64,000 nt of DNA from Hormiphora californensis. Taxonomy: Eukaryota; Animalia; Ctenophora. The DNA lies in NCBI GenBank assembly GCA_020137815.1, contig CM035360.1, forward strand, positions 1,116,001 through 1,180,000, in the 5' to 3' direction. Numbering within the stretch: the stretch's first letter is position 1; the number at the start of each line of letters is the position of its first letter. The notes beneath the pieces were generated by a model that searched no databases, was not told the DNA's origin, and was given only the letters and a program-made list of their open reading frames with translations. A program made the translations under genes and the position numbers. Shown one piece after another: positions 8,726 to 45,965 of this stretch.

Positions 8726-11700
8726 GCTCTCTCTATCTCTCTATCTCTCTATCTCCCCCTCTTTATCTATATAATATCTCTTCCTCAGATTGTCAAAGGG
8801 ATAACGAACATTTGTTGCCCAAAACATGGTTGTTACGACGCCTACACCCCTTATGATATACTGCTCATTCTCAATGATGAGACACTACACCTCAAATATC
8901 AAGGTAAAGTTGTATGTGCTTTTATATATTTTATGTACTGAATATATTATAAAATATTCTTATATCATTCTTGTTCTCTTCTCAAAATATGGTTTATCGT
9001 GGGGGTGACATTGACAGCTTTGAAATTCATTCACTCACAAATTTGCAGAATGCAGCTGTCCCCGCTATTTAAATAGTCACACACGCAATATGAGTTTTCA
9101 ATTTTGACACACTAATGGCCCATGTAACATCAGACATCTAGCGTCTAGAATTGAATTGTTCACAATATAGCTGTGCGAGAGAGTCTAAAAAATGCGGTTA
9201 TAGAGAAAAGGTGTGTGTAAGATGAGATTTAATACGGACCTCTCGGAAAGAGGAGACGACCCTATAGAGAGGAGACTGTCTAAAGATGGTCTTTATCTTT
9301 TTAATTATATGATCATGGGAGACTTCAATTTCCAGGTTCAAGACTCAGGCAACTTTTATGCGAGGAAGCTTCTTCACCTTTTGGACTCATTTGACTTTGT
9401 GCAGAATGTACCATCAGTTCCGACTCATGTGAGGGGAGGAACTCTGGATCTGATGATCTGTCAGCGTGATTTTCTCACTAAACTGGAAAACGTGCAAGTC
9501 TTTCCGGATGGGACGTTGTCAGACCATTTCTTGGCTACAGTGGACCTAAAGCTCTCTACCCCTGGGGATGATTATAGGACGTGGAGGAAGATGTACAGCT
9601 ACAGAGATTTTAATTCGGTTGATCCAGAGGAATTCAGACGTGCTCTCCAGGAAGTTTGTCTTCGGGTTCCAGATGGGTGTACTGCAGAGGAGGCTTTGAG
9701 GATCTATGATAGTGCGTTAGAGGAGGTGGTGAGGAAACTGGTACCGATGAAGAGAAGGAAGGAAGTAAAGAGTGTTAAGTTGTGGAGGGAGAGACAAGAT
9801 GTTCGGGAGGCACTAAGGGAGAGGAGGAGAGCAGAAAGGGCTTGGGAATCTAACAAGACAGGACTCAACAAGATACAGTACAAGGAACTACAGAGGCGTT
9901 TTGAAAAGATTGATAAGCAGGCGAGGATGGAATTTTCCCGGAAGCAGCTTGAGGAGGTTAAAGATGATCCTGCAGCGCTGCAGAAGAGGCTAGGTCGTCT
10001 AATTGGAAAGTCTGAAACTGTTCTGCCAGGAGGAGTGTCAGACGGAAAGTTGGCAGGGGATTTTGCAGAGTTCTTCAGTGGGAAGATTGAGAAGATTCGG
10101 ACAGCGGTTCGGGATGAGCAAGAGGATGGTTCTGAGGAGCTCACTGTGGATTCTCTGCCTGCGCCTACCTGTACTCTAACCAAGTTTGAGGAAATCAGAG
10201 TTAATGAATTAGTTCGGGTTGTCAAGGAAATGTCATCGAAGTCTTGTGATCTGGACCCTATTCCGACCTGGTTGGTGAAAGACTGCCTTGAAGAACTAGC
10301 GCCGATCCTGACGAACATTATCAACAAATCCCTTCTACGATCTACTGTTCCAGATATTATGCAGAAAGCATTGGTGATGCCAACGATAAAGAACCCCAAT
10401 GGGGACACTGATTTATTTTCGAACTACAGGCCGGTTTCTAACATATCGTTTGTATCGAAGGTACTGGAGAAAGTTGTGCTCAATCAGTTAAACTCATACC
10501 TATGGATGAACGACCTACTCAATGCAGACCAATCTGGGTATAGGGCGGGGCATAGTTGTGAAACACTGCTTGCTGGAATGTTTGATGACCTGTTGAAGGA
10601 TTTGGATTCTGGCAAAGTATCGGCCCTTCTGCTGCTTGACATGAGTGCGGCTTTCGATACTGTGGATCATTCGAAGCTGATTGGAATTTTGGAGGCAAGG
10701 TTTCGGGTAAGAGGATCTGCGCTTGAATGGTTTAGAAGCTACCTTAGCAAAAGGACTTTTAAAGTGAATGTTCGTGGGGAACTCTCGGCGGCGATTGCAC
10801 TAATCTGTGGAGTCCCACAGGGGTCCCTTCTTGGACCTGTTTTATTCTTGCTGTACATTGAGGAACTTCAGGATATTGTTCGTCCCTATGGCCTAAAGAT
10901 CAAACTGTATGCAGATGACTCTCAGATATACTTTGGACTGGTTCCGAGTGATGCAGAGGGGTGGAGTTCCAGTAAAAAGACCCTAGAGGATTGTCTCAAG
11001 AATGTCAAAACATGGATGGTTAACCATGGACTTAAGTGTAATGAGGACAAGACGGAGTTTCTACTGTTGGGAAAGACAAGCTCCTTGGAAAAGATGGCAT
11101 TTGATCCAGAGATCCAGTTTGGAGGTTCGGTGGTCAGGCCTATGGAATGTAAGGGGACGACAGGAAAGACCCTTGGTGTTCTCATGGACCATCAGTTGAC
11201 TCTTGAGAGACAGATATTCAATGTTAAGAAACAGTGTGGCCTTATGCTCAAGAACTTGTGGCAGGTCAACAAGTGTCTTGACAAAGATACCAAGATTATG
11301 TTGGTCAAGCAACTGGTCATTTCCCGGATTGATTACTGCAACATCCTTTACTATGGACTACCTAAGAGGATATTGAGGTATCTTCAGAAGACCCTGAATT
11401 CTTGTGTGCGTTTCATTTTCAATCTAAAGGGACATCAGGATGACTACACAGAATACTACAAGGAGGCACACATTCTACCTATTGAGCAGAGGCTGACTTT
11501 CAAGGCATGTCTTTTGGCGTACAAGATTGTACGAGGCACTGCACCCAAGTATCTGATGGACCTGGTCCCTCGTGATGACAATCCTGAACCTGTAAAACCT
11601 ACCCGATCTACCTCAGTTCCAGATTTCTTCAGGTTGAAATATCCAAAGCTCTCAAGTGTAAATGCGAATTCTAAGTTAAGAAGGAGGAGGATCTCTGTAT

Positions 11701-14700
11701 TCCTGCCGGAAGTGTGGAACTCCCTGCCATTGGAGTTAAGGTCTGTTCACCCTGTTGAACTCTTCAAGACAAGGCTTAAGACCCGGCTATTTAAGGAAGC
11801 TTTCGTTGATCCAGAGAGCAGTAGCACCTGAGTCATCTCGTCTTTGGGTCACTGGTTCTGTTCTGGTCTGGGTTTAGTGTTCCCCTTGGGCAGACGTTTA
11901 TTTAGACAGTGTTATTCCTCATTGCATTTACCGGGCTTGCAGTAATAGCTGCTGACTTTTTAATAGCTTTGAGAGCTGCTGTCTTTGAGTAGCATGAGAG
12001 CTGCTGACTTTGTAATTTAGCTTATTCAGTGTGAGAGCATTTTTATGCCTATCTAAGTTGGTTCGTATTTTATGAGGCCCGTATTTTCATCAATAAAAGT
12101 CTATCTATGGTGTGTTTAAATCCAGATTTTAATAGTATGTGTCATAAGTAAGGAAGGTGTTATAATTTAGGTATACCGCTCTGACGCTGAGCAGTGTCAG
12201 TCAAAATTCAGTTTGCTGGCCCTGTTTTGCCTGGGCGGTATACAAAAACTTATATTATTATTATTATTATTATTATCTTTGATGAACTCTATCTCTATAA
12301 TTCTATTTTTATCTTATTCTCGTCTCTCTATTTTCCGCCTCCAAATTTTAAAGGTAAACCCTGGCCCGGTAAAACTACAAAAAATACTGTGGTGCACTCC
12401 GGTATATCAATAAATTAGTAGAAACAGAGTTGTGCACAGCGCTCGAAATATACACATTGTATTTCCCAATTTGTAACTCTCTCTATTTTTACTTGAAAAT
12501 ACAGGAAGTAATGTGTACAAAAAAACTTTTCACATTGTCGTGTGAAAAGGCGGTGACAGATCACAGATCTGATGAAAAGATCTAAAATACATCACCCGAT
12601 AATTGTTCCCGATCTAAAATACCCGATCATTGTGCCTCATCTCATCCTCTCTTCCCAAGAATGGGGATTTTTCTAGAATTCTTTGCTGTTCTAGGGTATT
12701 GTGTGGATCTGCAGGAGGGAGTCTGTCAGGGTTTGTAAAATGTAAAATATTTATACCCCTCACGTCATGTACATTGTTAACCCTTTGACGGCGACAGAGC
12801 ATATATGCTACAGTCTATTCTAGGCGGCCTGGAAGTCCTTATATTATATCTAGGTCGCCCATATTTTGTCACAAGCTAGTTTTAGGGATTATGAACCTAA
12901 AACCACGTCCAGATCAGCTCAGAAAATCAAGAAAAAATTTTTATAGCCCTTCTAAGGAGGCTAATTTCGGCCTTTTTTTAAAAACATTTCTCATTTTTTT
13001 GTTTTTTGGGGGCACAACTAATCCTTTGAAGGAATGAAAGTGCTCGACATAGCCGACCGAATGCAAAAAGCCGCATCAAAAAATATTGAAAATTGAATGA
13101 CTTATTAACATTTAAGGCGCCGTATCATATATGATACTATCGCCCGTTAGGGAATTTTAGTAACAAATCTAAATTGTACAAGTTCGTGGGTGCTATGGCA
13201 TAAATTTATGCTTTCATGTGGTATGTAGCTACAAGTTCTACAATCGTGAACGATTTTACCAGGAAAAGAACCCAAATTAGAGATTTGTATCATATATGAT
13301 ACTATCGTCCTAAGGGTAAATTCTCCTATAACATACATAATTCGGGCTAGAAAAGGAGCTAAGAGACAAATGGGGGCACTAAAATGTGTATAATCATCGC
13401 ATTAGTGGGGGTAGAGCACATAATTAGGTCGCTATCTGGATCCCTAATTGAGATAATTGGATAATTAGCTAATTATCTGTCCCGCACGTGCTAATTATTC
13501 ATGAAACTTTGCTCTGGGAAGGAGTTATGAGACAAATGGGGCACTAAAATGTGTAGAATCATTACATTAGTGGGGGTAGAGCACATATTTAGGTCGCTAT
13601 CTGGATCCATAATTGAGATAATTGGATAATTAGCTAATTAGTTGCCCTGGAGCGCTAATAAATGAGACTTTGCGGAGTATCCAAGACAAGTAGGGGCACT
13701 AAAATGTGTAAAATCATCGCCTTAGTGGAGGTAGAGCACATAGCTGAGTTTCTATTCCAACTCCTAAATGAGATAATTGGATAATTAGCTAATTGACGGT
13801 TGCACACCGTCCACTTTTCACCAAATCCCGTGGTTTCTAGGTAATCCTGAGCTCTTTTGCTCAATCTAAGGATCTTCTGACAACCCCTAACCCCATTTGT
13901 ATCACCTTTGGGCCAAAGGTGATACAAATGGGGCTTTGGCTCGTGCTACACAATTGTAAAGCACTCGATACAACCCTAGACACTGCCTTCAGCTCTTTAG
14001 AACCCTCTTGCTCCATCCTAGTCCCTAGACCTCTCATACATCCAAGATCCAACTACAATCCTATAGAATTTTTATATCCTATTGCTCCTACAACACGTTC
14101 AACCTCTAATGTACTACAGTTTCCCATATTTATTGTTTGGACACACGGTTATAGGGGTTTAGGGATATTAGGGGATGTCAGAAGATCCTTAGATTGAGCA
14201 AAAGAGCTCAGGATTACCTAGAAACCACGGGATTTGGTGAAAAGTGGACGGTGTGCAACCGTCAATTAGCTAATTATCCAATTATCTCATTTAGGAGTTG
14301 GAATAGAAACTCAGCTATGTGCTCTACCTCCACTAAGGCGATGATTTTACACATTTTAGTGCCCCTACTTGTCTTGGATACTCCGCAAAGTCTCATTTAT
14401 TAGCGCTCCAGGGCAACTAATTAGCTAATTATCCAATTATATCAATTATGGATCCAGATAGCGACCTAAATATGTGCTCTACCCCCACTAATGTAATGAT
14501 TCTACACATTTTAGTGCCCCCATTTGTCTCATAACTCCTTCCCAGAGCAAAGTTTCATGAATAATTAGCATGCGCGGGACAGATAATTAGCTAATTATCC
14601 AATTATCTCAATAAGGGATCCAGATAGCGACCTAAAGATGTGCTCTACCCCCACTAATGCGATGATTATACACATTTTAGTGCCCCCATTTGTCTCTTAG

Positions 14701-17700
14701 CTCCTTTTCTAGCCCGAATTATGTATGTTTTAGGAGAATTTACTCTTAGGACGATAGTATCATATATGATACAAATCTCTAATTTGGGTTCTTTTCCTGG
14801 TAAAAACCGTTCATGATTGTAGAACTTGTAGCTACAAACCTCATGAAAGCATGAATTTATGCCATAACACCCACAAACTTGTACAATTTAGATTTGTTAC
14901 TAGAATTCCCTTACGGACGATAGTATCATATATGCTACAGTGGGCCCAGCAAAAACTACATGTCGGAATTACAAATTTCCTTTTCGAGGCGTTTTGTGTT
15001 GATAATATCTACTTATAAACGAAAAATTAGACAATTCTATCGAGCCAATCCTTCTCGCCGTCAAAGGGTTAAGCCAGCCGCCGCCGCTGTCCAGGGGTAT
15101 AAAATATATATGCAGAAATTACTTAAATTATGTAATACCCATATTGTACATAATATCACGCCTCTTTTTCTCCTCTCCTGCTTTCTCTCTCTCTGCCCAC
15201 CTCTGCCCTCTCTCTCTCCCTTTTTTGTCTCCCCCTCTCTCTTCCTTTTTTAAATTTGTATCAGTCCCTTCCTCCCTCAAACAGAATTATAGTTCCACTG
15301 AAAAGCTCTTGATGAGTTTGAGTGAATAAAAAGAAGCATTGAGTCATGATAGAAAGATTAAGAATAAAGCAAATACATATGTAAAATATAAGGTTACATA
15401 CCATATAAAGGCATATTCTTCGTAACAAACAACTACTAGACGAGCTCAGTGCTGATGTATTAAAAACTCATAGCCCAGACCATATTAGGGAATAAAAGTG
15501 CCTTGCTCGGCCATCGTACGATGTCCTGTACCGCACCCCTTACTATGCTGTATGCACATCAATTCATAGCAATTATATCACAGCTGGCGCCTGACCCTAA
15601 AACCGCGTCCAAAAGTCATCTAATATCGCTTCCTATCTCTCCTCCAACACCTGCAGCACCCCTCCCCTCTCTCTCCTACCTCTAACATCCCCCTCTTCCT
15701 CTCCTACCTCTAACATCCCCCTCTTCCCCTCCTCTCCTCACTCTAACATATCCTCATCTCTCAGACTTCATGCTACGGAAAGTGCTAATTAACGAGCCAG
15801 ATTGTCGGTGGTGTCCCGCTCCTGATTGTGGGTACGCAGTGATCGCCGCCGGTCGGGCTGCATGTCCCCTTTTGAAGTGTGAGAAGTGCCAAACTGAGTT
15901 CTGCTACCACTGCAAGGTAGGTTGGGAAATGGGAATCTTAGAAGTTAGAATTAGAACCTTAACAAGATAGATAACGATATAATGGTACTGGTGTAGTATC
16001 GGACGGAGGGCGCGAGATTTGGCAATCTCTGCTGCGCTGCAGCGCCGAGCACTGCAGCGCCGAGCGCTCCGTTCTGCTATTCCATCCTTTTTCCCAGGAT
16101 CGCGGTTTTAGATTCGGTCTTAGATTCAGTGAGTTTAGCAACAGTTCGGAAAAGGCAATCTAAAAAGAGTTACGTGTCCATTTATTTCTACATTTCATTC
16201 GGCCACGGAACCAAAGTCTTTTTATTCAGCAAAGGAGACGGCGAGGGAAAGAACCATTGGTATTCCCTCTTCGTCTCAGTTTCGGCTTTACTCTATCTGG
16301 TGGCTTCGGTCAAAGGTAGAATGCCCCCAAGGAAGCGGAAGTATGCCGCGCCTGTGAGGAAGTCTAAGCGTATCGCAGCAATGGCGAGTGAAGACATCGC
16401 CTCACCCCTACGAACACCTCTGTCCGTAGTAGAAGAAGAGCGAGTTTTGGTTAGGGCTAATGTGTACTCCAAAACTACCTCTGATTCTACCTCGAGCAAT
16501 GGTGATGAGAGAAGAACTACCGAGAAGAACGCAGAAACTATGCCTCAGTCAGATAGCGGAGCGTTCGACTTCTACTCGTTCATGGACAGTATGCCGGCGG
16601 TTCAGCAGCCAGCTCCGTCCCACCGTGTTCCTTCGCCAGTCTACACTCCAGCAGCCAAGGGAGCGTTCCTGGGGGAAGACGCCCTGCAGAGAAGTGACTC
16701 TTGTCGCGTGAGAGCCTTAAAGAAGGAATCTCGTGTCGAGACGCCACTGCCTACAGTAAATTTGAAGGAGGCCGGGAAGTTGTTTGTCAGAGGAGCTACC
16801 ATACCGTCCCCTCTCAGATCAGTATCAGCAGAAGACAGTGAAGAGGAAGAGGAACAGTATTGGTACGGCTATGTCGACGGAAGAGGATACCACCCCATGT
16901 CCGAGAAACAGGAGCAGACATACAGAAATTTTCTCGCTCGCCAGAGGGCTGGTATGCCGTCCCAGATAGACGATCCTCCTCGTCCCGTCATCATTGATCC
17001 TAGAGGAGAGCCTATCCGACCTACACCGATTGCTAGGCGAGATTGTAATCCGCGTCAGTTGGCTGTAGACAGCGATAGGGAGTCCGTGAGCACCGATACA
17101 CTGCCTCGTGTACGGAGTGAACACCGTTACAGCAGGTTCCAGAAGATCAAGACACCGATCTACAAGTCAGGGGACGATTTTGATGTGTTCCTGATGAAGT
17201 TCCTGAAGTACCTGAAGCGGAGTAATGTTGCTTGGGTTGAGCTCGGAGAACATCTACTAGAAAGTATCGAGTGCAAAGACAAGTACAAGAGAGTGAACCG
17301 TCTGAAACTCTTGGGACCGGAGCAACGTGATCCTGATCTCTTGATCTCCGCAGTCCGTAGCGCTATTGTAGATAGTGTGAAGGATGAGGAAGCTGAGAGG
17401 AGGAAGCTCATGCAGATGAAGCAGGATACCGAGGAATCTGTAGAGGAGTTTGCAGATCGTATTCGTGAGGTGGCTGAATATGCCTTCCCTAGTGAAATAG
17501 ATAGGGTGGTTAATCAGCGCATGATCGAAGCTCTTCAGGACGGTCTAATAGACACCCGAGTGAGCGAACTAGTTTGTGATTTGAGGAGCTGCAATCTCAA
17601 CTTCGACAAAGTAGTTGTACAAGCTGCTAAACGGGCGAAGAGAAACCAGATGTTCAGAGGGGATGTGTACAGAGATCCCGCTTCTACTTCTCCTCACTCG

Positions 17701-20700
17701 GACAATGTGTTCCGCATGACATCAAATGTCGTGGAAGACAATGCTCCCAGTGCTCCAGCTCGTCAGACATCAGGGAATGCTCCAGCGAGTGTACCTCAGT
17801 GTTCCAAGTGCAACCAGAGAGGTCACGACGATGACAATTGTTGGGCTAGTATGACTTGTCAACTTTGTCGAGCTCATGGACATCCTGCTCACCGATGTGA
17901 AAGATTCAGAGGTCGGAATGGCAACTCGCGAGGAGGTAGGAACTCGAACCCCACAACGAGGTCCGGAGGTGATCGTTCCAGTTCCTATCGAGGGTGTTAT
18001 GAGTGTGGTGCTCTAGACCACCGAGTGGCACAGTGTCCAATTAGAGCAAGGACTGTTCAATGCTATTCTTGTTACCAGTTTGGGCACCGAGCGGCGGAGT
18101 GTCCTCAATTTCAGGGAAACGGCGGGGCGATTGGAGGCTACCCAGCAGCAACCGGTCGCCAGTGAACACTGTTACTAGAACGGATGTGGAGAGTGGAGAG
18201 AGGAGGAAGACCATAACAACTGTTTCACCTTCTCGATCATTTGCTGCTGTTTGTTCTGAAGAAGTAACACCGCCCCAAGAGGAGAGTGTTGTGAAGAAGG
18301 TCGACAGCAGGGAACAGAAAACGTGTCAAGTTGTGATCGAGGGACAGATGGGAAAACACAGAGTCAGGGCATTTGTCGACTCTGGTTCTTCTATCAGTCT
18401 GGTATGTAAGCAGATAGTACAGCGGATGGGCATGCTCGACAGTATGGTTCCTACCAGTCGGAAGGTATTTGATTTCAGTGGGAATCCTATTTCTCTTCAC
18501 GGTACTATCGATCTCAACTTCTCTGTGGGCACAAGGGTTATTAATCAGTGCTTCGTGGTGTGTGGTTCAATGGATACGGAAGTGTTGCTGGGACATGACT
18601 TTCTTTCTGTTAACCATTGTTGTTTGGATTATGGTTGGGAGTTATTTCTCCTTCCGGGAGGTGAGAGTGTTTCATTCGCTCCTCGGTTGAAGAATGTTGA
18701 GAAGTCGCACCTGATACGCGGGCTGCAGGGACAAGTAGTGCCACCTGATTCAATAGCCTACATTCAGGGTCGACTTCCACAGCATTTGAAATCGTGTGTG
18801 GGAATGATTACACCATTTGGAGCTGTTGGTGAGGATGGGTTACTGGTGGCGAGTGCTGTAGCAGAGGGTAGAGATCAGAAGGTGACCCTGAAGGTGATCA
18901 ACATCTCATGCCATCCAGTGTCAATCCGAAACAAGCAGGTTTTGGGTAGATTTGGTCCCATTCCAGAGTACAGGCCAATATCAGGAGTACAATGGGCGGA
19001 CCAGGACAGTGTTGTGAACAAGATCTCAATAGATGTTCATGAACGCTGGACAAGAGAGGAGCTTTTCGACAGACTTGGTCTGGCTAAACGGCAAGGGCCG
19101 GATATGACCGAGGAAGAAGAAGGCCAGCTCAGGGAGATTTTATGGAAGTACAGGGATGTTTTCAGTTATGATGAGTATGATATTGGATGTTCCAATATGT
19201 ACACTGCTGAAATCCGTTTGAAAGAGGGGGCACAACCCTGCTGGGCAAACCCTTTCCCTGTTCCTTATAAGTTGCGTGACGAGATGGATAGAAACATCGA
19301 GAAGATGAAGGAGGCGGGAGTAGTGGAGGAGTTACAGGAGCCCTCAGACTGGAATTCTCCTATTTTCTTGGTGAAGAAGAAGACAGCAGGATCTTGGAGG
19401 TTAGTAGCTGACCTGAGGTGTGTGAACAAGGAGTGTGTGGGCGATAGCTATCCACTTCCCAACCTGAATCATGTTTTGGATAGTATTGGAGGGGATTCGA
19501 TATTCTCGAGCTTTGATCTGTCCAAGGGATTCTGGCAAGTCCCGTACACACAAGAATCGAAAAAGGTAACAGCTTTTCTTCATCGTGGTCGTCAATTATG
19601 TTTCGCTAGGATGCTGATGGGACACAAAACATCGAGTTCCAAGTTCACTAGGATGATGGAGAAATTGTTAGGCACCTTGCCAATTGAACAGGTTATTTAT
19701 TTTGTGGATGATGTGTTTCTCTCGTCCAAAACTGTGTCCGAACATCTAACACGTTTGGATAGACTTTTAAACCGTTTCCAAACAGCTAATCTCAAGATAT
19801 CTCCCGGGAAGACAGAGTTGTTGAAGAAGGAGGTGGAGTTTGTGGGGATCTCTATCAGCGGTAAGGGTGTCAGCATCACTGATGATAGAGTTAAATCCCT
19901 GACATCTCTCCCAGCTCCAAAGTCGAGGAAGGAAGTAAGTGAAGTACTAGGTGCGTTCAATTACATTCGAAAGTGGGTAAAAGGGTTCAGTTCAATTACC
20001 AAGCCGCTCCATAACATCCTATCAGGACCGAAGAGTCGTCCCTTTGTGTGGTCTGCTGAGTGTGACAGGGCATACAACCACTTGAAAGAGTTGGTGTGTG
20101 AAAAGACCACCCTGTCTATACCCGATCCTGACGACCCTTTTCAGAGCTATGAGGTGACTGTAGATGCCAGTATGGATGGTTATGGTGCCACTTTATCTCA
20201 GGAGTTAATGTGTGATGATGTGAGAGAGCGGAAAAGATGGTGTTGGGTGTAGTGGTTCTTCACAGAGCGCTACATCAAACACTGCAGATACTCGAGATGA
20301 GATTCCTGTTCTCAGATCGAGTAGTGATGAGGAGGTGGAGGAGTTGTGTGGGGAAGATCAACCTACACGTGTGCAATCTGACGATCTATCAGAGTTGGGG
20401 AGTGAGCAGCAGTCGGTCAACAATCTCATCTCACGGGGTGATGTGACTGACGTTGTTGTCAACCAGTTACACGGGGTGCCGGATATCAGGGGAAGTATTT
20501 GTGAGGACGAGATTTCTCTCGTTTTGGAAAATCCACAATTTCTTACTGATGGTGTTCCCGTTATATTGGAAGATACAGAGGGAACAAATGTTGGTGAGAA
20601 GGGCACTGAGGCGGATGGAGCTTGTGATACAGATCATTTTGGATTTGGTTGGCTCGATTCCTGCAATGAAAGTGAGGTCCATCACCAGACCATTTACCAC

Positions 20701-23700
20701 GTTGAACCTAGTTGTTGGTGTACCGCCAAACCAGCTAGCACGGTTCCAGAGGTGCTGGAGGTGAATGCGATTTTTGATATTCCTGATGGGGGAGGACAGT
20801 TATTAAACTGGAGAGAGTGGGAAGCTGCGCAGAAAGAGGACGATATATTTCTAGTGGTGAGGAATTGGGTGATCCAGGGCTCGCGAGACGTCGTGCAAGC
20901 TAACAGGACCCCTACTGAACTGATGTCATTGTGGAAACAGTTCAATTTGCTTCGTGTGGAGGACGGAGTACTTCAGAGAAGGTGGACTTTTACATCAACA
21001 GGAGAAGACAGGTGGCTGATCCTTGTTCCACCGGATAAGAGAGAGTTAGTGATGAACAGATGCCATGGTGATCTTTGCGGACATGCCGGAGTGGAAAACA
21101 CTCAGCTTTGTTTGCGGAGGTGGTACTATTGGCCAGGGATGGAGAGTGATGTGAAGGAGTTTGTTGCAGCGTGTGTTAACTGTGGGTCCAACAAACAACC
21201 CAGGGCCTACGGGAGAGCTCCAATGGCGAGAATGATGTTCCACCATTTCAATGATGCCATCATTATCGACCACATTGTTCCTCAGAGGAAAGGGAACACA
21301 CCTAGAAGGAACAATGCAATCCTCACCATCTCAGACGCCTGGTCCAACTTTGTAATTGCTGTACCGGTGAAATCCCAGACCAGTGAGGAGAACAGAAGAA
21401 CTATCCTTGAGAGTTGGGTGTACCGTATGGGGTGGCCACGTGAGATAATATGCGACAATCACCAGGGGTTCCGAGGCGCCCAGTTTAGAAGATTCTTCGA
21501 AATCCATGGTGTTAAGTTAACATATGGAACAGCTTACAAGGCGGCCAGTACAGCGAGAGCGGAGATGAACAACAAACGTACCAACACTGTTCTGAGGGCC
21601 ACACTTCATCAAATGTGTCCTCGAAATTGGGATCTCCATCTTGCCAAGGTATCCTTTGTTCTAAACTGTTTGAAAAACAGAAGGACCGGATACACAGCTA
21701 ACAGATTGGTGTATGGGCGTGAGTTGAATGTTCCAGAGATGCTCATGTTGGATAGAGGTGGTGATTCCGAACAGAGCGGTGAGCCGAATTTGTCTGCTGA
21801 GATATATAGAAGCTCCAAGGAACTGCGGGATATATCCAGGAGGGTGAGGAAGAACATGGACACAGACTGGGGGTATGCCAAGAGATCATACGACAAGAAA
21901 TGTCATGATCCAGGGTACTCTGCAGGAGATCAGGTGTTTGTGAGGATAAATTGTCCAGCTCACAAGTTTGGAGCTCGTTGGAATGGCCCATTCTTGGTGA
22001 AGAGAGTATTGAACCCTTACCTTTACATTGTGTCAAAATCAGCAACAGAGGACAAGGTGATCAATATCTCGAAGTTGAAGTTGTACCGAAAGAAGCAGGC
22101 AGGTGAAAACACGGGGGTCAATGTTGAAACCGTTGTTGATCCTGTTGATCCTGTTCCTCTCATCGATTTAGCTACGGGGGAGACACAAGAGGAACCTATT
22201 GTTATAGCTCCTGTTGTCGAACCTGTACCTGATACCTCTCACGAGATTACTTCTTTCCCAAGTGTACCAGTACAGCCGGAAAGAGGTGGAACAGCGTGGG
22301 CAGGAAGATTGAGGAAGAGAATAGCTAAGGTTGTCAGCCGGATCTCCAGAGCAGGAAGTAATCGGAGAGGATAGTGTGTCAAATTCTGGCCAATTCCTTT
22401 TCATTCTTTATTCTCTCACAAGATGGACCGAAATCTGTGAGATCTGTGAGAGAATCATCTCTGTGCTGTAGTAACCCGGTCTCGGTGCAACATGTTTGTC
22501 TGTGTATCTGATTAAATTCCTTTCTCACGGGGCGCATGCCAGAGAAGGGACAGATATGCAACAATGCATCTTCGGCGACTAGCAAGAGGCGGCGAGCGGA
22601 GAGGGGTGTGAGCGCAATGAATGAAAAGCATTCAGTGTGAGCACTCAACGAGATAGTTTTTTGCGGCGCGGCCGAGGGGATCATCTCATGCTCCATTCCT
22701 GATCTATGTGTCAACGTCAATTGACGAGTACACACATCCGGTCAAAATTGACTTGACTCTGAAATCAGCAAGTATGAGAGAGACGATACAATTATCCTCT
22801 CTTGTACAACCTGATGACGAGAAGTTGAAGAAGAGGAAGCAGGCAAGATCAGAGGATTGCTGGGACAAGAGCAGAGGAATGCGAGGAGGCTGCTACATTC
22901 CAGAGGAACTAGAAGAAATTCCTACCCCTGCTGAGAGAAGACGAAGAAGAAGAAGAAGAAAGCTGCTGTTCTCATCACAACAGAAGATTGTGTGTTTGTA
23001 GTACAAGTGTACAGACAATGCAAGTAGTTCGTTTGTCCGTGCGTGATTTAGTAACTTATTCAGTTGAATGTTTTATAATTAGTGGTCGTGTGTTATTTTT
23101 AGTGTGATAGTGAGCTAGATAGTTTTTTAGAGTGAGAAGTGTGATTTAGTGGTCTCCAGTAGGTAGGGATGGTCTCGGGTTTCGTTTTTAGTGTTTTATT
23201 TATTTGGCTGGCCTATTTCTCTCTTTTGTTTTCTCTTTTGACCGTGTTCCAAGGTCACAAATAGGGGAGGGGGGATGGTGTAGTATCGGACGGAGGGCGC
23301 GAGATTTGGCAATCTCTGCTGCGCTGCAGCGCCGAGCACTGCAGCGCCGAGCGCTCCGTTCTGCTATTCCATCCTTTTTCCCAGGATCGCGGTTTTAGAT
23401 TCGGTCTTAGATTCAGTGAGTTTAGCAACAGTTCGGAAAAGGCAATCTAAAAAGAGTTACGTGTCCATTTATTTCTACATTTCATTCGGCCACGGAACCA
23501 AAGTCTTTTTATTCAGCAAAGGAGACGGCGAGGGAAAGAACCATTGGTATTCCCTCTTCGTCTCAGTTTCGGCTTTACTCTAATATAATGGTACTAAATC
23601 AAATAAATTGACAGAAGCTTTCGAGATCACTGTGTATCACGTCTTCAGCTTCAGAATTAGAACCTATAATTACTATTTCATCTTACGAATCTTGGGAGTA

Positions 23701-28850: not shown

Positions 28851-31800
28851 TTTGTTGACTCAGTCCGACTTCCGTGTATACCTTTCTCTCCCTGGCAGTG
28901 TGGGAAATCAGAATCACCCGCTTTGGTCATGTTTCAGCCAACATTATCAATTTATTGACTTCCTTTTCCGAATAGTAGATGGGTTTTTAGTTGTACAATT
29001 ACACTTCCACCAAAACTGAAATAGTACATGAATTTGCTTCCTGCTAATAATATAGTACAGCAGTTTGACGTTACAACACTGCTAAGCTCCTCTCTTTATA
29101 ACATACACAGTTGTCTTCTTGCAGCATACATACAGTTACTTGTGTATGCTCTCTACTAATTGCCGCTTCTCCATTGAATATTCAATTAAATATACATTGC
29201 TCTCTTGAACACTTTTATATTTGGTTTCTTTTACTCAACATGAGTTTTGCAATGATCTCCCCTCAAGCAAACTTCCACAGAACCAATATGCGCCCTGTCC
29301 GGGTTGTTAAATTCCTGTCTGCTATCCTCCTCCTCGCCCTATTCCTCCTCTTTATTCTCCAAGACAACCCTCAACACCACCAACAATCCTCCCCTACAAC
29401 AAACAACCTTCCTCTCAAATCGGGCAGTCTCCTAACCTACTCATCCTACTACCTCCCCCCGGGACTACCACCCCGGCCCCGAAGGGACAACGTCTCTGTC
29501 CTGTGGGTTAGCAGTCTCACAGAGGGAGAGGGACACCGGGGGTTCGTCCAGGAGAACCTGAATTTCCTGATCCCACTCGGACAGGAAGTTGATATAGGGT
29601 GGTTTGCTATCGACATTCCATCATCATCAGACCTGCTAACAAACAGTAATTACCTGGAGAGGAGGGAGGAGGAGAAACTCTCCCTCCTCACCTCCTACCA
29701 CCGGGGTAAATCCATGTTTATGGCTGGTAACTTCCCCATCACAGTGTTAGGATGTACCCCTTCCGAGTATCCTGATATCATCCCCCTCCTCCGGAACCAC
29801 TCAGCGGTATACAAGATTGGTAGAAGTATGTTTGAGACTACCTGGATCCCCGCAGGGTGGGATGCCCTGATAAACGAGTACCTGGATGAACTGTGGGTGC
29901 CGACTGAGTTCGCGAGGGAGGTTTACCATAAAGCGGGGGTGTTGAGACCCATAACGGTGCTAGGAGAGGGGTTTGATGGTGAGGTATTTAAGAAGTTACC
30001 CTCTCCTGATGAGGTGGTTAAACTTAGGCAGCGGTTCTTTCCAAACTGTCACCCCGATGATACGATATTTCTCATGGTTGGAAAGTCAGAGCCGAGGAAA
30101 GGGGTTGAGTATGTTATCAATGCGTTCGGGGACGAGTTTCGGAGAGGAGGTGCGTGTCTGTATTTGAGGACGAAACTGACCAATGTACAGCAGCGTCTTA
30201 TTCGACGTAGGAAGGGTAGAGTTACTAGAGTTAGGATGTTTGGAATGGATGCTCTGGATTACCGTGATTTGGTGCTGGCCTACAAAGCGGCAGATGTATT
30301 TATACTAGCGACCCATGGGGAGGGCTGGGGTAGACCTGTGATGGAGGCAATGGCATGTGGCCTCCCTGTTATTGTCCCCCTCTGGTCCGGGTTAACAGGT
30401 TTTGTGAAGGAGCAATATTCGTTATCCATCCCTGTTACCCGGTTAGAACCTGCCTTCCCTGATGAACCTTGGATTATACACGGTGAAAAGTATAGTGAAC
30501 TTCATAAGTGGGCGGGGATCAATGTGAAGGCGATGAGAAGACAAATGAGGTGGGCGGTAGATCACCCAAATGAAAGGAGGGATGTGGGGTTGAGAGCCAG
30601 GGTTGAGATGTATGGGAATTTTACACGGCAGCATATATCACGAACTGTGGCCGGGAGGTTGGAGGATATTTTATTAAAATTTGTTTTATAGCGTACCTTA
30701 TTTTGAATTGTTCATACACAGTGTCAGGCGACTCAAACCTTATTATTCAAGTTGTTGCTTTTTGTCAGTCTTGATACCGAGAAACCCGCCCATATGGGCG
30801 TCGCCCCCAAATGTATATAGGAGGGTTCTAGAACATACCAATCCTAAGTGCACTGGGCGGATAATAATGCTTTTATATTCATTGCATAATGCATAAAAGT
30901 ATTTGTTTTTGGGTTCAACGGCCACTCCTGATTCTGAGAAATCTGTTCTAAGTGCTTTGGGTAGTTTATGGTCTATGGGAGACTGAACAGAACAAATATT
31001 CACCCTAAAAAGTTATTATCACTCAGCTTTCTAATCCCACGAATCAGTGATTCTCCTCTATCTCACCATGTCATTTTAGTGAACAGTAACCGGTAGAGGA
31101 CCACCCACTAATCAATTAATCATCAATTCTGCTCTGTTACCTCACCCTTTTCTTGGGAATCAAAACTTTTAGAACCGTTAAATAACAAAATAAATGAATC
31201 GTTAAATATCACGGGAATATCTTGCGTTATTCGACCCTCCAGGGGCTCTACCAACGTATATAGCATTACAACTCGCCACTAGGACAGGTGGCACCCGCGA
31301 AGCTTCAAAATGCAACAAACGTATTTGTATCGTTATCGATATCAAATCACTCTGCACCTGTCATGAGTCATCACAACCCCCTTCACCTGTTACCACAACC
31401 CCCTTCACCTGTTTCCACAACCCCCTTCACCTGTTTCCACAACCCCTCTCTCCATTCCCCTGTTTCCACAACCCCCTTCACCTGTTTCCACAACCCCTCT
31501 CTCTCTCCATTCACCTGTTTCCACAACCCCTCTCTCTCCATTCACCTGTTTCCACAACCCCTCTCTCCATTCACCTGTTTCCACAACCCCCATCTCTCCA
31601 TTCACCTGTTACCACAACCCCTCTCTCTCCATTCACTCGTTTCCACAACCCCTCTCTCCATTCACCTGTTTCCACAACCCCTCTCTCCCTCTTTTAACCC
31701 TCTCACCCTTCTCACCCCTCACTCAACAAATCTCCTCCAGGTGCTCCGATAATGATAGCCTTCGTGTACACTGTCGTTCCCTTCCTGATATGCCGGGGTG

Positions 31801-37557: not shown

Positions 37558-38860
37558 GGGTACACCTGGCGTTTTTCATCATCGAGTGCCCAACCAAATG
37601 ACTTCACCAGGGTTTAGGTCATACAAAATGGACCTCAAATATGCAATTTTAGCCCTAAAGTCGAATTCATATTTTTGCTACAGCCTATTTTCAAAGTGGC
37701 GTTTTTTCAATTTTTGTTGGAATTTTTAACCTCAGGACCACTTTTTTTGAGATAGAAACATTAAATTCTTGAAATTTGAAGAGAATATAAAGGTGAATAA
37801 GCCCAAAGAAGGATTTTTGAAATGGAGCTTATTTCTGGCCATGAGAAGGGTTTACTTTTTTGCTTCTTTGACACGCTGGCTGAGAATGTTCCCATGCTTC
37901 ATTAGAGATGAAAATCTGGAAATAGTTGCTCAAAACGATTATCTATGTGGCCCAAAAATTTTGGAACTTTCCCGCCAAAGATGTGGTGTACAGAGCTTGT
38001 TTTGTGAAACCCGTCTTTTTGAAAAAGAGAGGAATTCCCTGTATCTCCAAAACGGATGATCGTAGAGACCTGGGACCAAGCTTAATCGATTCAGAAGGTC
38101 CGATTTTGGGGGGGTCTTCTGAGAGACATTTTGCTCCTACTCCAACCGTTTTTGCTGTAATTGCGAAAAAGGTATCAGCAAGTAAGGGGGAAATCAGCCC
38201 GAAGCAGGCTACTGGAATAGAGTTGTTCCCCCTTTTCATAGAATTGGTTTTTTGCAATTACAGCAAAAACGGTTGGAGTAGGAGCAAAATGTCTCTCAGA
38301 AGACCCCCCCAAAATCGGACCTTCTGAATCGATTAAGTTTGGTCCCAGGTCTCTACGATCATCCGTTTTGGAGATACAGGGAATTCCTCTCTTTTTCAAA
38401 AAGACGGGTTTCACAAAACAAGCTCTGTACACCACATCTTTGGCGGGAAAGTTCCAAAATTTTTGGGCCACATAGATAATCGTTTTGAGCAACTATTTCC
38501 AGATTTTCATCTCTAATGAAGCATGGGAAAATTCTCAGCCAGCGTGTCAAAGAAGCAAAAAAGTAAACCCTTCTCATGGCCAGAAATAAGCTCCATTTCA
38601 AAAATCCTTCTTTGGGCTTATTCACCTTTATATTCTCTTCAAATTTCAAGAATTTAATGTTTCTATCTCAAAAAAAGTGGTCCTGAGGTTAAAAATTCCA
38701 ACAAAAATTGAAAAAACGCCACTTTGAAAATAGGCTGTAGCAAAAATATGAATTCGACTTTAGGGCTAAAATTGCATATTTGAGGTCCATTTTGTATGAC
38801 CTAAACCCTGGTGAAGTCATTTGGTTGGGCACTCGATGATGAAAAACGCCAGGTGTACCC
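37558..38860. mobile_element. Near-perfect palindromic (foldback) TTAA element
   Basis: TTAA|GGGTACACCTGGCG...CGCCAGGTGTACCC|TTAA. Arms of about 610 bp with few mismatches and a spacer of about 80 bp. This explains the mirrored ORFs 37769/38359 and 37926/38175. Confidence 0.93.
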
Positions 38861-41656: not shown

Positions 41657-41898
41657 TTAATTCATATATTATATGGGCAATGAGGGGGGGGGGGGGTACA
41701 TATTTTGTTTTGTTCACGGGGAGGGAGGGTCGAACAAGGCAATACACATTGTGCTAGTCTGCTAGTAAAACATCTTGAGCTCCTTTAATTTAATTTGAAC
41801 CTTCCTCTACTTCTGAGAATTATTATTTATATGCCACTTTTAGAATTATATATATACTTACTTCTGATGATTTACTTCTTCTGATGATTCGCCGCCGT

Positions 41899-43330
41899 TT
41901 ACACTCCGACCGGGGTATCGCTTGCTTGCAACTCCCCATCGTTCAGTCTCATGTCTAGTATAGAGTTCCTGGAGCTTCGTACATATCCCGTAACTGGGGG
42001 ACAGTCCGAAAACGACGTCAGGTATCTTGACAGCTGAACTTTGAATACCTGGAACTCGTCAATTTGATTAAGTTTTGCAGGTAAACAGTTCCATAGTCGT
42101 GGTCCCATAACAGCAAAGGATCCGTCATATGCTGTCTGTTTGGCCATAGTGGACAGTTTGGTCAATTTGGGAACCACAGCTCGAACTCCAAGTCGGCCTC
42201 CAGTTGTGAACCTTATTTTGAGGTCATTGGAGACTAGGCCGTGCATGATCTTCCACATGTGGAGAATGGAGTATCTCTCTCTCCTGCGCTGCAGGGAGCT
42301 AAGGCCCAGGTATTGCAGTCTCTGCCAGTAATCCATCCCCTTGCACTCAGAGATCCGTCTGGTGAAGGAGCGTTGCACCCCCTCTAAAACCTGGATATCC
42401 TGGATCTTGGTAGGATTCCAAAGAGGGCAGCAGTATTCCAGCAGGCTTCTTACCATGCTCTTGTAGAGGGTTACCATAACCCCTCTATCCCTGGTCCTGA
42501 ACACACTAAACACCCAGGCTGCTTTCCTCTTAGCGTTTTCGGCGATGGTAGCGATGTGACCGGACCAGGTTAGATCAGAATGAACAAGCACGCCCAAATC
42601 CTTAACCGAGGACATAGGTTTCAGCAGCCCTGCTGAAGTGCTGTAGCTCAAGATATCAGCAGTAAAAGGGAGATGGTGCATGAGATGGTCACGTGAAACG
42701 CCATGCAGTAGGAATTCAAACTTATCCGTATGCAGTTTCATGTTATTTCTCAGTGACCACTCGGTAACCGAATCCAGGTCCCGTTGGAGTATTTTCATAT
42801 CCATTTCTCCTCCAATACTCTTCATGATTCGTGTGTCATCTGCAAAGCACCGCAGTGTACTTCCTGACACAACCGTTGTGATATCATTCAGATATATTAA
42901 AAAGAGCATCGGTCCCAAAACTGACCCTTGGGGAACTCCGCTCTTAACATGTACAGGCTCCGACTGACATCCATCCACCGTGACTCTCTGCACTCTTCCT
43001 TCCAGGAAAGACTGGATCCATGTCACGAGACCTTCATGTACCTTATAGCTTCTAAGCTTTCTAATCAAGATGTTATGATCAACTCGGTCAAACGCCTTAG
43101 CGTAATCAAGGTACACAGAGTCAGTTTCCATGCCATCGAGTGCATTACTATGAATGTTGTCGAAGTGATCTAGGAGCTGGGTGAGGCAACTTCTCCCACG
43201 CCTAAATCCATGTTGAATGTCGTTAAAAAGCTCATTTTTCTCAAAATGGTTCACTAGCTTTTTCCGTACGACTCTCTCGAAGACCTTAATGGTATGATCG
43301 GTCAGAGAGACAGGGCGATAATTTGCAGCT
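41899..43330 (-). CDS. LINE ORF2 reverse transcriptase portion (out of frame with the endonuclease N-terminus)
   Basis: AANYRPVSLT upstream of the called ORF; QHGFRRGRSC, YLDYAKAFDRVDH, SGVPQGSVLGP, CFADDT. Confidence 0.9.
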
Positions 43331-43616
43331 GAGCTACATGCTCGTCTATCGGTAGATCAAATGACGTCAGCAGCATAACACCGCCCCCTGTCCTGTATCT
43401 CCGATCACAACGGTAGACCCTGTACTTCTCCCATCCATTTAGAATTTGTAAGTTTTCCACGTATGGTTTAAGCCATGTTTCTGTCACAGCTATGAAGGGT
43501 ACCTCTCCTGGGATTGACTCCACATCCTCCCTGAGGCACTGCAACTTCCAAGCACATTTACTCCTTGCACTTGGGTTGCAGGATTGGGCGTTTAATAACA
43601 CGCCTGACTGCAGCAC
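43302..43616 (-). pseudogene. LINE ORF2 APE endonuclease N-terminal fragment
   Basis: LLNAQS, IAVTETWL and YRCDR..RTGGGVML motifs, then an abrupt junction to RT-proximal sequence near 43335. Confidence 0.85.
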
Positions 43617-44950
43617 CCGTGGCCGGATCCGACCCGAGACCTCCCCATTGAGCAGCTCTTTCCTTGATCTGCTCTCAGAGTTTTCAGGGTTTTCTGCATT
43701 TGTGTCTGATCCCCTTTTATGTCCGACATTCCCTTCTGAAGCTTTTCCAAAAGGGATTTGATAGCTAAAAAATCACCCTGACTTTTAGCTGGAGTGAATT
43801 TTGCGTTTGGTTTACCGCCTGGTTTACCGTTTCGTCCCAGCGAACTGCCAGGCTTCTTATCATTGGACTTGTTTTGCCCCGTTGCGAAGGACGGCTTTTC
43901 CGTTCGTCCTCCTTCCTGGGAAAGTCCACGTTCACTCTTTCTTCTATCTCTCTTTTGCCCCACCTGGTCCCTTGGCTTTCGCCTGTTGGTTCCTTTGGGG
44001 TGAACAAGGTAACATTTCTTTTCAAAACATTCCTTGGATTCTATTGCTCTGCTACAGATAGCCTTGTGTAGTTTCCTACATTCCGGACCCTTGGCACAAC
44101 CTTTCTCTCCTTTCTTCCCCCAGGGAACACATAGTTTCGGATGAAAAAAGTCACACCTATCCTTACCGTCAGCAGATTTCTTCCCAGTTATGCCATGAGG
44201 ACACCTACCCTCCTTGAGCAACATACAAGTAGTTTCGCACTCGTTTGGGAATTTTTCCGCCTCCTTCTGCTGTTTCGCGAGATTGGCCAGTGCTTCCAGC
44301 ACAGTCGGATCGCCAGCATTCACCTTCTCGCTTGCCTCATCGTTCATTTTCGTTTTCCGTTCACTACCGGGCTCAACAATCGACAGACTGTTATTCCTAG
44401 ACCTTCCAGGCGTATTCAGTCGCGATGAGACCTTGGTAGTAAGCGGTGTACCCTTTTCCTCATCTTTGGGAACACAGCACGGATCGCATATCCAAACTTC
44501 TCCTACCAGGCTTGAAGCTTCATTTCTGGAAGTGATTACACTCACCAAAGGTTCACAGTCATGGGAAGGTTGGTGACAGAGAAAACACCTCAGAGGAACG
44601 AGGCCATTCCTCTTGTGCTGGTAGATGTCGTTACATTCAGCACATTTGACTGGCACGGTCAGGGCTTTGAGCTCCTGAGCAACCCTGAGAGCAATCCTGG
44701 GCTTTGTTTTCAGCTCTATGTCCTTAACCCCCTTTTCACCATATAGGGGAGGAATACCGAGAAACTCCGCGAATTCATCGAGAATGGGTCGGTTAACCTT
44801 TGATAAGGACGCCTTATTGGCCCACACAGGTTGTGATGTATCGAAGTGTGTCAAGCAGGTTTTAACAGCTTCCGGACCAGTCCGAATCATCTCCCCGAGT
44901 ACTTCCTTGGCTGTGCCATGTTTGTCATGATTGGCCATTACTTTTACCAT
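43592..44950 (-). CDS. LINE ORF1 protein with a PHD-like finger and CCCH-type zinc fingers
   Basis: CAEC..CFLCHQPSHDC..WICDPC; CPHG..CDFFHPKLC..CAKGPECRKLH..CYLVH; basic C-terminal region. Confidence 0.8.
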   Translation of the reverse strand: MVKVMANHDKHGTAKEVLGEMIRTGPEAVKTCLTHFDTSQPVWANKASLSKVNRPILDEFAEFLGIPPLYGEKGVKDIELKTKPRIALRVAQELKALTVPVKCAECNDIYQHKRNGLVPLRCFLCHQPSHDCEPLVSVITSRNEASSLVGEVWICDPCCVPKDEEKGTPLTTKVSSRLNTPGRSRNNSLSIVEPGSERKTKMNDEASEKVNAGDPTVLEALANLAKQQKEAEKFPNECETTCMLLKEGRCPHGITGKKSADGKDRCDFFHPKLCVPWGKKGEKGCAKGPECRKLHKAICSRAIESKECFEKKCYLVHPKGTNRRKPRDQVGQKRDRRKSERGLSQEGGRTEKPSFATGQNKSNDKKPGSSLGRNGKPGGKPNAKFTPAKSQGDFLAIKSLLEKLQKGMSDIKGDQTQMQKTLKTLRADQGKSCSMGRSRVGSGHGCCSQACY

Positions 44951-44996
44951 AGGCTAGATCCTACAGGGGGTTTGAGACACACGACGCCGCCGCGAG

Positions 44997-45033
44997 CTCA
45001 AATTAATTTGTTTAAAGTAGTGTTGAAAAGTTT
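44997..45033 (-). other. Spliced-leader (SL) exon sequence, retrotransposed copy
   Basis: Reverse complement reads AAACTTTTCAACACTACTTTAAACAAATTAATTTGAG, 46 nt upstream of the ORF1 ATG. It matches my recollection of the Pleurobrachia SL. No GT donor or SL intron follows it. Confidence 0.75.
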
Positions 45034-45965
45034 ATATGTAATATAAGGAAGGAAATAATTATAAAGATGGTATAACTTTAAATTATGTAAATGGTTATAC
45101 CATCTTTATAATTATTTCCTTCCTTGAGAAGCACTTATGCACACCCTATATATGGTGCTGGATTTTGACATCAATACTACTTTACTAGGGTAGATCGTAT
45201 CTATAGACCACCTTTATATACCGATACTTTAACTAAGATCATTAGATCAACTTTGTGTTGCCCGCGTAGCGAACATGAGGGGCGCGACGTGCCCAAAACT
45301 TTGTGGGAAGCTGCCTGGTTAATTCTGGTTTTGATTTGTTCAAACCCCCCCCCCCCCCCCCCGGCGGAACTATGTTCTCCATATTGTATGAATACGTGAA
45401 AGGTGTGATAATATAATGGTGGAAAGGAGGCGAAAATTATTATAGTTATAAGGTGGTTCGAATTACAACTACATTCGTACCCCGATTTACCGAGATGCTC
45501 AGGAAATTTTGCCCGGTAAATCGGGGTGCGGGGGTGCCTGGCATTATTATAGCAGAGTGATGTTTTGTTAATTCACTGATTGTATTGCTGTAACAGCAAT
45601 ACAATCTGAATCAGGAAATGCTGTTGAGTAACTGTCAGGCCAATGCTCTGACCACAGTTCTCGCACGAGAATGGGTCAGGCCAATGCTCTGACAGTTGAG
45701 TAAGGGCTTACTCAACAACTCTAATGGGAAGTTTCTACTTTTATTTATTTCTACTTTTATTCGTGTGGTCTATGTGCACATAGGACACATATGTGTCCGG
45801 TTCAAACAATACCTACCTGGAAGTATCTTTCCCTTTCCTTTACTTGTTTCTCCTTACAATCCGAACACGTTAAGCAGTCAGCTGGGATGAGCGACTTGAC
45901 AAAGGGTCTAAAATCTTTTAACAGCTTGACCTGTGAATATGAAGTACGGCGGCTGAGTTATCTTC

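What the first reader, a model, noticed from the sequence alone, without database searches (positions are those of the whole stretch)
41856..45033. LINE retrotransposon capped by a spliced leader: a retroelement that may use host SL trans-splicing in its life cycle
Seen: on the minus strand the element begins with AAACTTTTCAACACTACTTTAAACAAATTAATTTGAG, joined directly to a 46-nt UTR and the ORF1 ATG (44950). No GT donor or SL-RNA intron follows it. Established: ctenophores use SL trans-splicing, and I recall this string as the Pleurobrachia SL (to be verified). The SL-associated elements I know (NeSL, SLACS/CRE) are restriction-like-endonuclease elements that insert into SL genes, whereas this is an APE-type CR1/L2-group LINE. 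Inference: the LINE RNA was trans-spliced and fully reverse transcribed. Because the SL ends in AG, each new copy carries a possible acceptor. The element could then be cut out of any read-through transcript and capped, with no internal promoter.
Basis: partly seen in the sequence, partly recalled or inferred. Interest (0 to 1): 0.88.

Follow-up and report, generated by a model that had tools for sequence, protein, structure and literature searches.

The report
Comb jelly LINEs wear spliced leaders
A jumping gene (LINE) in a comb-jelly genome begins with the short leader that these animals splice onto their messenger RNAs, as do its sister copies and many unrelated LINE families, so these elements were copied from leader-spliced RNA and likely get a fresh leader again and again as part of their life cycle.

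Summary
Observation confirmed, with corrections. The 37-mer at 45033-44997 equals the last 37 of the 43-nt ctenophore spliced-leader (SL) exon, both as published for Hormiphora and in an SL-RNA/5S array found here. An empty-site allele has no SL and leaves a 4-nt TATA duplication, so the SL arrived with the element; this is not insertion into an SL gene. The window copy lacks 1291 nt of ORF2. In 3 of 4 DNA runs, including a second organism, the family's 5' UTR joins the SL; no SL-free upstream was seen. One variant has the SL at a downstream TAG acceptor. Of 10 SL hits in two DNA-type metagenome assemblies, 9 head transposon-like ORFs and 1 is the SL gene; two LINE lineages about 25% identical are involved. 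Likely mechanism: recurrent trans-splicing renews the 5' end. Unshown: splicing at the SL's own weak GAG, and lack of a promoter. SL-tagged retroelement loci are already noted in flatworms, and this scan noted SL-headed LINEs in dinoflagellates, Perkinsus and Euglena. My searches found no report for ctenophores.

The parts
45033..45036 (-). 5' copy of the 4-nt target-site duplication (TATA, in a TA run); its last A is also the first A of the 37-mer
   Evidence: empty-site contig in run X3: joint 41852->45033 skips 3180 nt, 4 letters fit either side; sequence
44997..45033 (-). host spliced-leader exon, last 37 of 43 nt, ending exactly at the SL donor position
44951..44996 (-). 46-nt 5' UTR, shared with a sister family; holds a pyrimidine-preceded TAG ending at 44961 that carries the SL directly in one variant copy
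   Evidence: joint 44960->44997; loose end at 44962; records 10, 18, 2
43592..44950 (-). ORF1, 452 aa, Cys/His-rich (PHD-like and CCCH-like spacing seen by eye; no Pfam match)
   Evidence: relatives at 86, 72 and 46% identity
43335..43616 (-). ORF2 start: first ~94 aa of the APE endonuclease, cut off by the deletion
   Evidence: 74% identical to residues 1-94 of P0004, a 990-aa APE+RT protein
43332..43333 (-). junction of a 1291-nt internal deletion in ORF2; 2-nt microhomology, ends not GT-AG, so not an intron
   Evidence: X3 record 13 and X4 records 20 and 21 carry the missing part; junction; length restores the frame
41899..43335 (-). ORF2 3' half: reverse transcriptase, open to its stop
   Evidence: Pfam RVT_1 E 1.1e-31; 73% identical to P0004 residues 525-980
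41857..41898 (-). short 3' UTR ending in two imperfect tandem repeats; no poly(A)
41853..41856 (-). 3' copy of the TATA target-site duplication

Best explanation
This is a recent, internally deleted copy of a ctenophore APE-type LINE family whose genomic copies begin with the host spliced leader, and the leader is likely renewed by trans-splicing again and again, at or just behind the AG of the old leader. Shown: the SL came with the insertion, is joined exactly at its donor position without SL intron, is the family's 5' end in two organisms, and heads other LINE lineages. Inferred cycle: a transcript starts upstream of the SL/UTR junction (read-through from a host promoter, or the element's own promoter near the SL); the old SL then works as an outron; the spliceosome adds a fresh capped SL; ORF2 reverse-transcribes the RNA and stops 0-8 nt short of the cap; the loss does not accumulate because the next round supplies a whole SL and leaves no relic. 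The window copy cannot make ORF2 and was either mobilised in trans or deleted during or after insertion.
For: Empty site without SL, 4-nt duplication. UTR joined to SL in 3 of 4 runs: X5 (0 differences), X10 of organism B (13 differences in 270 nt, same junction), X3. In X5 the depth over 44979-45014 is flat at 3321, the sum of the two SL-joined contigs (2171+1150), so no third contig brings another upstream. Two variant junctions both start at the SL's 3' end: one lands on the first downstream AG, a pyrimidine-preceded TAG (X5, depth 191), one lands 15 nt downstream (X3). Of 34 SL loci from metagenomes, 10 head transposon-like ORFs, 7 of them with an APE domain behind ORF1. All 10 and the window join at the donor position, keep 35-43 nt of SL and show no second SL piece within 300 nt. 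Among six related families the 120 nt behind the SL are only 32-79% identical while the last 35 SL nt are invariant, and their ORF2 is 20-31% identical to the window's lineage. TE transcripts carry SLs in Hydra (about 30% of TE Iso-Seq reads, PMC12220107).
Against: The SL ends in GAG, the least used acceptor context (recalled). L016, L020 and L032 keep a TTTYAG directly behind the SL that should compete with it. The X3 variant junction is not preceded by AG in the window's sequence, so it may be a plain deletion. The TAG variant rests on one contig in one run, and a deletion through the shared AG would look the same. The metagenome scan demanded an exact 29-mer, so SL invariance is partly built in and LINE families without SL could not be counted. 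The X4 family contig stops at 44994 with no continuation of either kind. 7 of 15 X5 records and 3 loose ends were not displayed. The UTR is 93% conserved in a sister family whose ORF1 DNA does not align at 80%, which suggests a function of its own such as a promoter.
Confidence: 0.62

Rival explanations
1. The SL was captured by trans-splicing once per family (or rarely) and is now inherited as a fixed part of the element: transcription starts at the genomic SL under an internal promoter in the SL and UTR, only copies with a complete 5' end are active, and re-splicing is an occasional accident.
For: GAG is a weak acceptor (recalled). TTTYAG is retained behind the SL in 3 of 10 loci. The UTR is conserved between sister families, and a C-rich box about 20-30 nt behind the SL is visible in L016, L020, L031, L032 and weakly in the window. 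Internal promoters are the rule in APE-type LINEs (established knowledge).
Against: Only 1 of 11 copies keeps all 43 SL nt, so the 5' end should erode. Lineages with 20-31% ORF2 identity all carry the present-day SL with no relic of an older one, which needs replacement at the old junction. Variant junctions start at the SL end.
Confidence: 0.26
2. SL-free master copies with their own promoter, outron and YAG acceptor make the RNA; the SL-headed copies are dead-end processed products.
For: This is how SL-tagged retrogenes arise (PMC12014239). Contigs drop rare variants; the X4 contig ends 2 nt before the junction.
Against: No non-SL upstream at the junction in 4 runs, although variants at single-locus depth (191, 78, 86) were kept by the same assemblies. 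The same holds in organism B.
Confidence: 0.08
3. One-off chimera (template switch onto SL RNA) or assembly artefact.
For: The window holds one SL only; LINE-snRNA chimeras are known in mammals (listing).
Against: Same junction in independent runs and a second organism. Eleven junctions all at the donor position, none with SL intron.
Confidence: 0.02
4. Targeted insertion into an SL-RNA gene, as NeSL, SLACS, CRE or CZAR do.
For: Such elements exist (recalled); the 3' tail happens to end in GTAAG, like the SL donor.
Against: The empty site has no SL; no SL intron or 5S sequence in the flanks; the endonuclease is APE-type.
Confidence: 0.01

Closest known systems
SL-bearing retrotransposon loci of parasitic flatworms (PMC12582326: 597 loci with partial leaders at LTR and LINE elements; PMC5832876: six SL-containing transposable elements in Schistosoma mansoni)
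   Same: Genomic SL exon without SL intron next to a retroelement; the authors suggest integration of trans-spliced retrotransposon RNA (passages read).
   Different: In the passages read they are a by-catch, with assembly chimeras not excluded (PMC5832876) and no test of family-wide fixation, empty site or cycle. Here the SL is near complete, is the family's standard 5' end, and has an empty site and an alternative acceptor. The supplement of PMC12582326 could not be read and may hold more.
Dinoflagellate SL-relic retrogenes (mRNA recycling; PMC12014239)
   Same: Trans-spliced RNA is reverse transcribed, inserted, expressed and trans-spliced again (passages).
   Different: Host genes, not the LINE itself; new leaders land on an AG inside the old one, so relics pile up in tandem. 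The ctenophore SL has no internal AG behind its first two bases, and no relics were found in 11 of 11 loci.
Trans-spliced TE transcripts in Hydra (PMC12220107) and Cer1 of C. elegans (PMC3315495)
   Same: Retroelement RNAs use the host SL machinery (passages).
   Different: RNA-level only in the passages read; the full-length Cer1 RNA is not trans-spliced; no SL in genomic copies is reported there.
SL-gene-specific RLE retrotransposons (NeSL, SLACS, CRE, CZAR; recalled)
   Same: SL sequence abuts the element's 5' end.
   Different: They insert into SL genes with a restriction-like endonuclease. Here the endonuclease is APE-type and the target had no SL.
R2 and L1Tc elements released from co-transcripts by an HDV-like ribozyme (PMC3185411, PMC4035085: start of abstract only; R2 recalled)
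   Same: Works like them if the inferred cycle holds: a processing step defines the 5' end out of a longer transcript.
   Different: Here the host spliceosome would do it and add a cap; Rfam finds no ribozyme in the window.
CR1-group LINEs
   Same: Two ORFs, APE+RT, Cys-rich ORF1, short tandem-repeat tail; RT motifs look CR1-like (recalled).
   Different: 5' end is host SL; clade placement was not tested against reference elements.

Membership tests
Retrocopy of an SL-trans-spliced RNA | SL exon joined exactly at its donor position, without SL intron | tested here: met
   SL gene L022 continues with GT, the window does not
Retrocopy of an SL-trans-spliced RNA | SL lies inside the insertion (empty site lacks it; target duplication outside it) | tested here: met
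   X3 record 9; one contig in one run
Dinoflagellate-type recycled retrogene | tandem relic leaders from repeated cycles | tested here: not met
   0 of 11 loci with a second SL 11-mer within 300 nt; several contigs have under 60 nt of upstream flank
Dinoflagellate-type recycled retrogene | transcript of the copy receives a new SL | not testable with these tools
SL-gene-specific RLE elements (NeSL/SLACS/CRE/CZAR) | restriction-like endonuclease behind the RT | tested here: not met
   APE domain in front of the RT
SL-gene-specific RLE elements (NeSL/SLACS/CRE/CZAR) | inserted in an SL-RNA gene | tested here: not met
SL-RNA gene | GT donor, stem-loops and U-rich Sm-like site behind the exon | tested here: not met
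   present in L022 (z -3.88), absent in the window
APE-type two-ORF LINE | ORF1 plus ORF2 with APE and RT | tested here: met
   RT; APE remnant 74% identical to P0004, which has PF03372, PF14529 and PF00078; this copy is internally deleted
CR1 clade | PHD-type zinc finger in ORF1 | tested here: inconclusive
   Cys/His spacing by eye; no Pfam match at E 0.1
CR1 clade | 3' tail of short tandem repeats, no poly(A) | tested here: met
CR1 clade | RT groups with reference CR1 elements in a tree | not tested
   no named reference elements among the 120 listed hits; no tree was built
Promoter-less, co-transcribed element (R2-like mode) | no promoter activity in the 5' end | not testable with these tools
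   needs reporter or cap-mapping data

The most novel reading that the evidence does not exclude
Ctenophore LINEs of several deep lineages have handed their 5' end to the host: each copy's leader is the acceptor that cuts it out of any read-through transcript and is swapped for a fresh capped leader, a self-renewing end that needs no promoter and leaves no relic. Most of the hundreds of dispersed leader copies reported in ctenophore genomes would then be LINE heads, not SL genes, and retrotransposition would seed trans-splice acceptors across the genome.
Probability: 0.3. Interest if true: 0.86.

Novelty: new variant of a known kind. Interest (0 to 1): 0.66.

Why it matters
It offers a third way for a LINE to keep its 5' end, beside internal promoters and self-cleaving ribozymes, and in an early-branching animal lineage. 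It gives a concrete reading of the 718 and 491 leader copies reported in the Hormiphora and Mnemiopsis genomes (PMC8527503), which confuse gene annotation. It ties SL trans-splicing to transposon biology: a leader that changes between species would have to be re-captured by every LINE family. All of this can be tested with public assemblies and Iso-Seq data.

Tried and rejected
No whole genome is held for the window, so copies could not be counted one by one; contig depths are used only as rough ratios, and the tool warns they are no copy number. Only 5 of 22 listed runs were laid (X3, X4, X5, X10, X22). No RNA holder was listed; the one guessed-RNA run X22 covered only the SL and one 39-nt piece, which is no evidence on expression. 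The 1291-nt deletion was tested as a spliced-out intron: ends are not GT-AG, rejected. The X5 joint 43218->44986 is likewise not a canonical intron. SL scan of viral contigs: 0 hits; RT search there: none confirmed. The 15 hits of a 19-mer in prokaryote genomes extend only 19-21 nt and were dropped as chance. Distance from the SL to the first AG is longer in 11 LINE loci than in 23 mRNA-like loci (p 0.02), but the loci are related and three go the opposite way: not used. A Pfam scan of 104 open frames chosen from 22.6-62.7 kb plus the LTR element found no host exons that bracket the element, so a read-through source was not identified. L016, L031 and L032 have no Pfam-supported domain; the Atlas gave unnamed ctenophore clusters for L032 and a doubtful PHD lead for L031, so they count only as probable LINE ORF1. 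Derelle et al. 2010 (PMC2844618) is not held; supplements of PMC8527503 and PMC12582326 could not be read and may bear on novelty. Look-ups of earlier scan notes by place and by sequence were empty.

Full report
Observation. The minus strand carries the 37-mer at 45033..44997, a 46-nt UTR and the ORF1 ATG at 44950. Its last 29 nt occur once in the window and in 0 of 100 shuffles. PMC8527503 (passages read) prints a 44-nt leader consensus for Hormiphora californensis whose last 37 nt are identical; the same passage reports 718 leader copies in that genome and 491 in Mnemiopsis. A metagenome scan also returned the SL-RNA gene itself: L022 has two 778-nt units, each with a 5S rRNA gene and a 43-nt SL exon followed by a GT donor and further stem-loops. 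The window matches that unit over the 37 nt only. So the window is from a ctenophore with this SL, and the copy lacks the first 6 nt of the exon.

Anatomy. ORF1 is 452 aa with no Pfam match and three relatives at 86, 72 and 46% identity. ORF2 is broken: its first 94 aa are 74% identical to the start of P0004, a 990-aa APE+RT protein, and the RT half is 73% identical to residues 525-980 of it. Contigs of runs X3 and X4 carry extra sequence at 43332/43333; in X3 it measures 1291 nt, which restores the frame. The junction has a 2-nt microhomology and no GT-AG ends, so it is a deletion, not an intron. The three named relatives among the 120 listed RT hits are Mnemiopsis leidyi proteins. The tail is two imperfect repeats without poly(A). 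CR1-like is a recalled label; no tree was built.

The SL came with the element. One X3 contig runs from 41852 straight to 45033, with 4 letters fitting either side. This is the empty site: no SL, and a TATA duplication in a TA run. The insertion is therefore polymorphic and recent, and targeting of an SL gene is excluded.

The SL is the family's 5' end. With only 18 nt of SL in the laid stretch, so that SL-only contigs drop out, the UTR runs into the SL in 3 of 4 runs: X5 (90-nt contig, no differences, depth 2171, against 2658-3488 for two ORF1 contigs and 121-313 for single-locus pieces), X10 of organism B (one contig over all 270 nt, 13 differences) and X3 (15 nt of UTR left out). In X4 the family contig stops at 44994 and nothing continues it. 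A sister family aligns only over the UTR and SL (4-5 differences in 70 nt), reaches the SL in X4, X5 and X10, and in X3 has one piece with 14 nt of SL and then unrelated flank; its loose end reads as an N-terminus like P0003. No loose end shows a non-SL upstream at the junction; three loose ends and seven X5 records were not displayed, but the X5 depth over 44979-45014 is flat and equals the sum of the two SL-joined contigs. Depth rises toward the 3' end in X3, X4 and X5, as expected for a LINE with 5'-truncated copies. Depths are rough ratios only.

Variant junctions. In X5 one contig (depth 191) joins the SL to 44960, skipping 36 nt that end in the first AG behind the SL, a TAG after a C-run. 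This is what a fresh SL spliced onto a downstream acceptor and then retrotransposed would look like; a deletion through the shared AG cannot be excluded. The X3 variant also starts at the SL end but lands on a site without AG in the window's sequence.

Other families. Of 34 loci with the exact 29-mer, 23 are mRNA-like (SL at the contig end, host-type ORF), 1 is the SL gene and 10 head transposon-like ORFs. Two assemblies hold no mRNA-like hit and so look like DNA: they give 9 transposon-like loci and the SL gene, and no SL-headed host retrogene. Seven of the 10 have an APE domain behind ORF1 (six reach a curated cut-off, the cut-off fragment of L003 does not). Six form one group with ORF1 identities of 31-61%; L020 is a relative of the window element (ORF1 25%, APE 34%); ORF2 identity between the two groups is 20-31%. 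L016, L031 and L032 are probable ORF1 only. All 10 and the window join at the donor position, keep 35-43 nt of the exon with unrelated flanks, and show no relic. In the six-member group the 120 nt behind the SL are 32-79% identical while the last 35 SL nt are invariant; 29 of these were required by the search. L020 comes from an assembly whose other four hits are mRNA-like and has 351 nt of flank before the SL; if that assembly is RNA, it is a read-through transcript that was not spliced at the SL, but strand and molecule type are unknown.

Mechanism. Shown: SL-LINE junctions made at the donor position in many lineages, carried by retrotransposition. Inferred: because only 1 of 11 copies keeps all 43 nt, yet every lineage carries the present-day SL without relics, the SL is probably replaced repeatedly at or near the old junction (0.62). 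Against an every-cycle version: GAG is the weakest acceptor (recalled), three loci keep a TTTYAG right behind the SL, and the UTR is conserved, which fits inheritance of the SL with an internal promoter and rare renewal (0.26). The two readings can combine: an internal promoter that starts at the old SL would make it a short outron. Whether the element lacks a promoter was not tested.

Known cases. PMC12582326 reports 597 loci with partial leaders at LTR and LINE elements in flatworms and suggests integration of trans-spliced retrotransposon RNA (passages). PMC5832876 reports six such elements in Schistosoma and allows assembly chimeras (passages). PMC12220107 finds SLs on about 30% of TE Iso-Seq reads in Hydra (passages). 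PMC3315495 shows SL1 on the short but not the full-length Cer1 RNA (passages). PMC12014239 describes SL-relic retrogenes (passages). PMC7986045 (passages) only lists ctenophores among SL users. Eight searches gave no paper on SL-headed LINEs in ctenophores or on an SL as a family's fixed 5' end; I read listings for most hits, subscription papers are mostly missing, Derelle 2010 was not held and two supplements were unreadable. Earlier notes of this scan describe SL-headed LINEs in dinoflagellates, Perkinsus and Euglena; I did not check them.

Verdict. Real, family-wide and shared by several LINE lineages; a new variant of a known kind. The promoter-less, self-renewing cycle remains a hypothesis with a clear test. 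Interest 0.66.

Noticed in passing
window 45045-45125: Perfect 32-nt inverted repeat with a 17-nt loop, 12 nt upstream of the SL; the X3 allele differs heavily here, so it may be a separate small polymorphic insertion.
   Followed up: partly
window 15989-23575 (+): Gypsy-like LTR retrotransposon with two identical 300-nt direct repeats and gag, protease, RT, RNase H and integrase matches in three frames; apparently young.
   Followed up: partly
window 9204-11831 (+): 5'-truncated LINE, 68% identical in ORF2 to SL-headed L034 and 29% to the RT of the finding; no SL because its 5' part is missing.
   Followed up: partly
window 29102-30691 (+): Uninterrupted 529-codon frame with a family 1/4 glycosyltransferase domain; origin not examined.
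   Followed up: no
L022 263-1513: Ctenophore SL-RNA genes alternate with 5S rRNA genes in a 778-nt tandem unit.
   Followed up: yes
L032 471-1656 and L016 67-1258: SL followed by a single ORF1-like frame; in L032 a TAA-repeat run follows within about 150 nt, with no ORF2: possibly SL-headed ORF1-only non-autonomous elements.
   Followed up: partly
   Followed up: partly
window 37751-38667: Inverted duplication of about 700 nt, probably a miniature DNA transposon (mirror ORFs).
   Followed up: no
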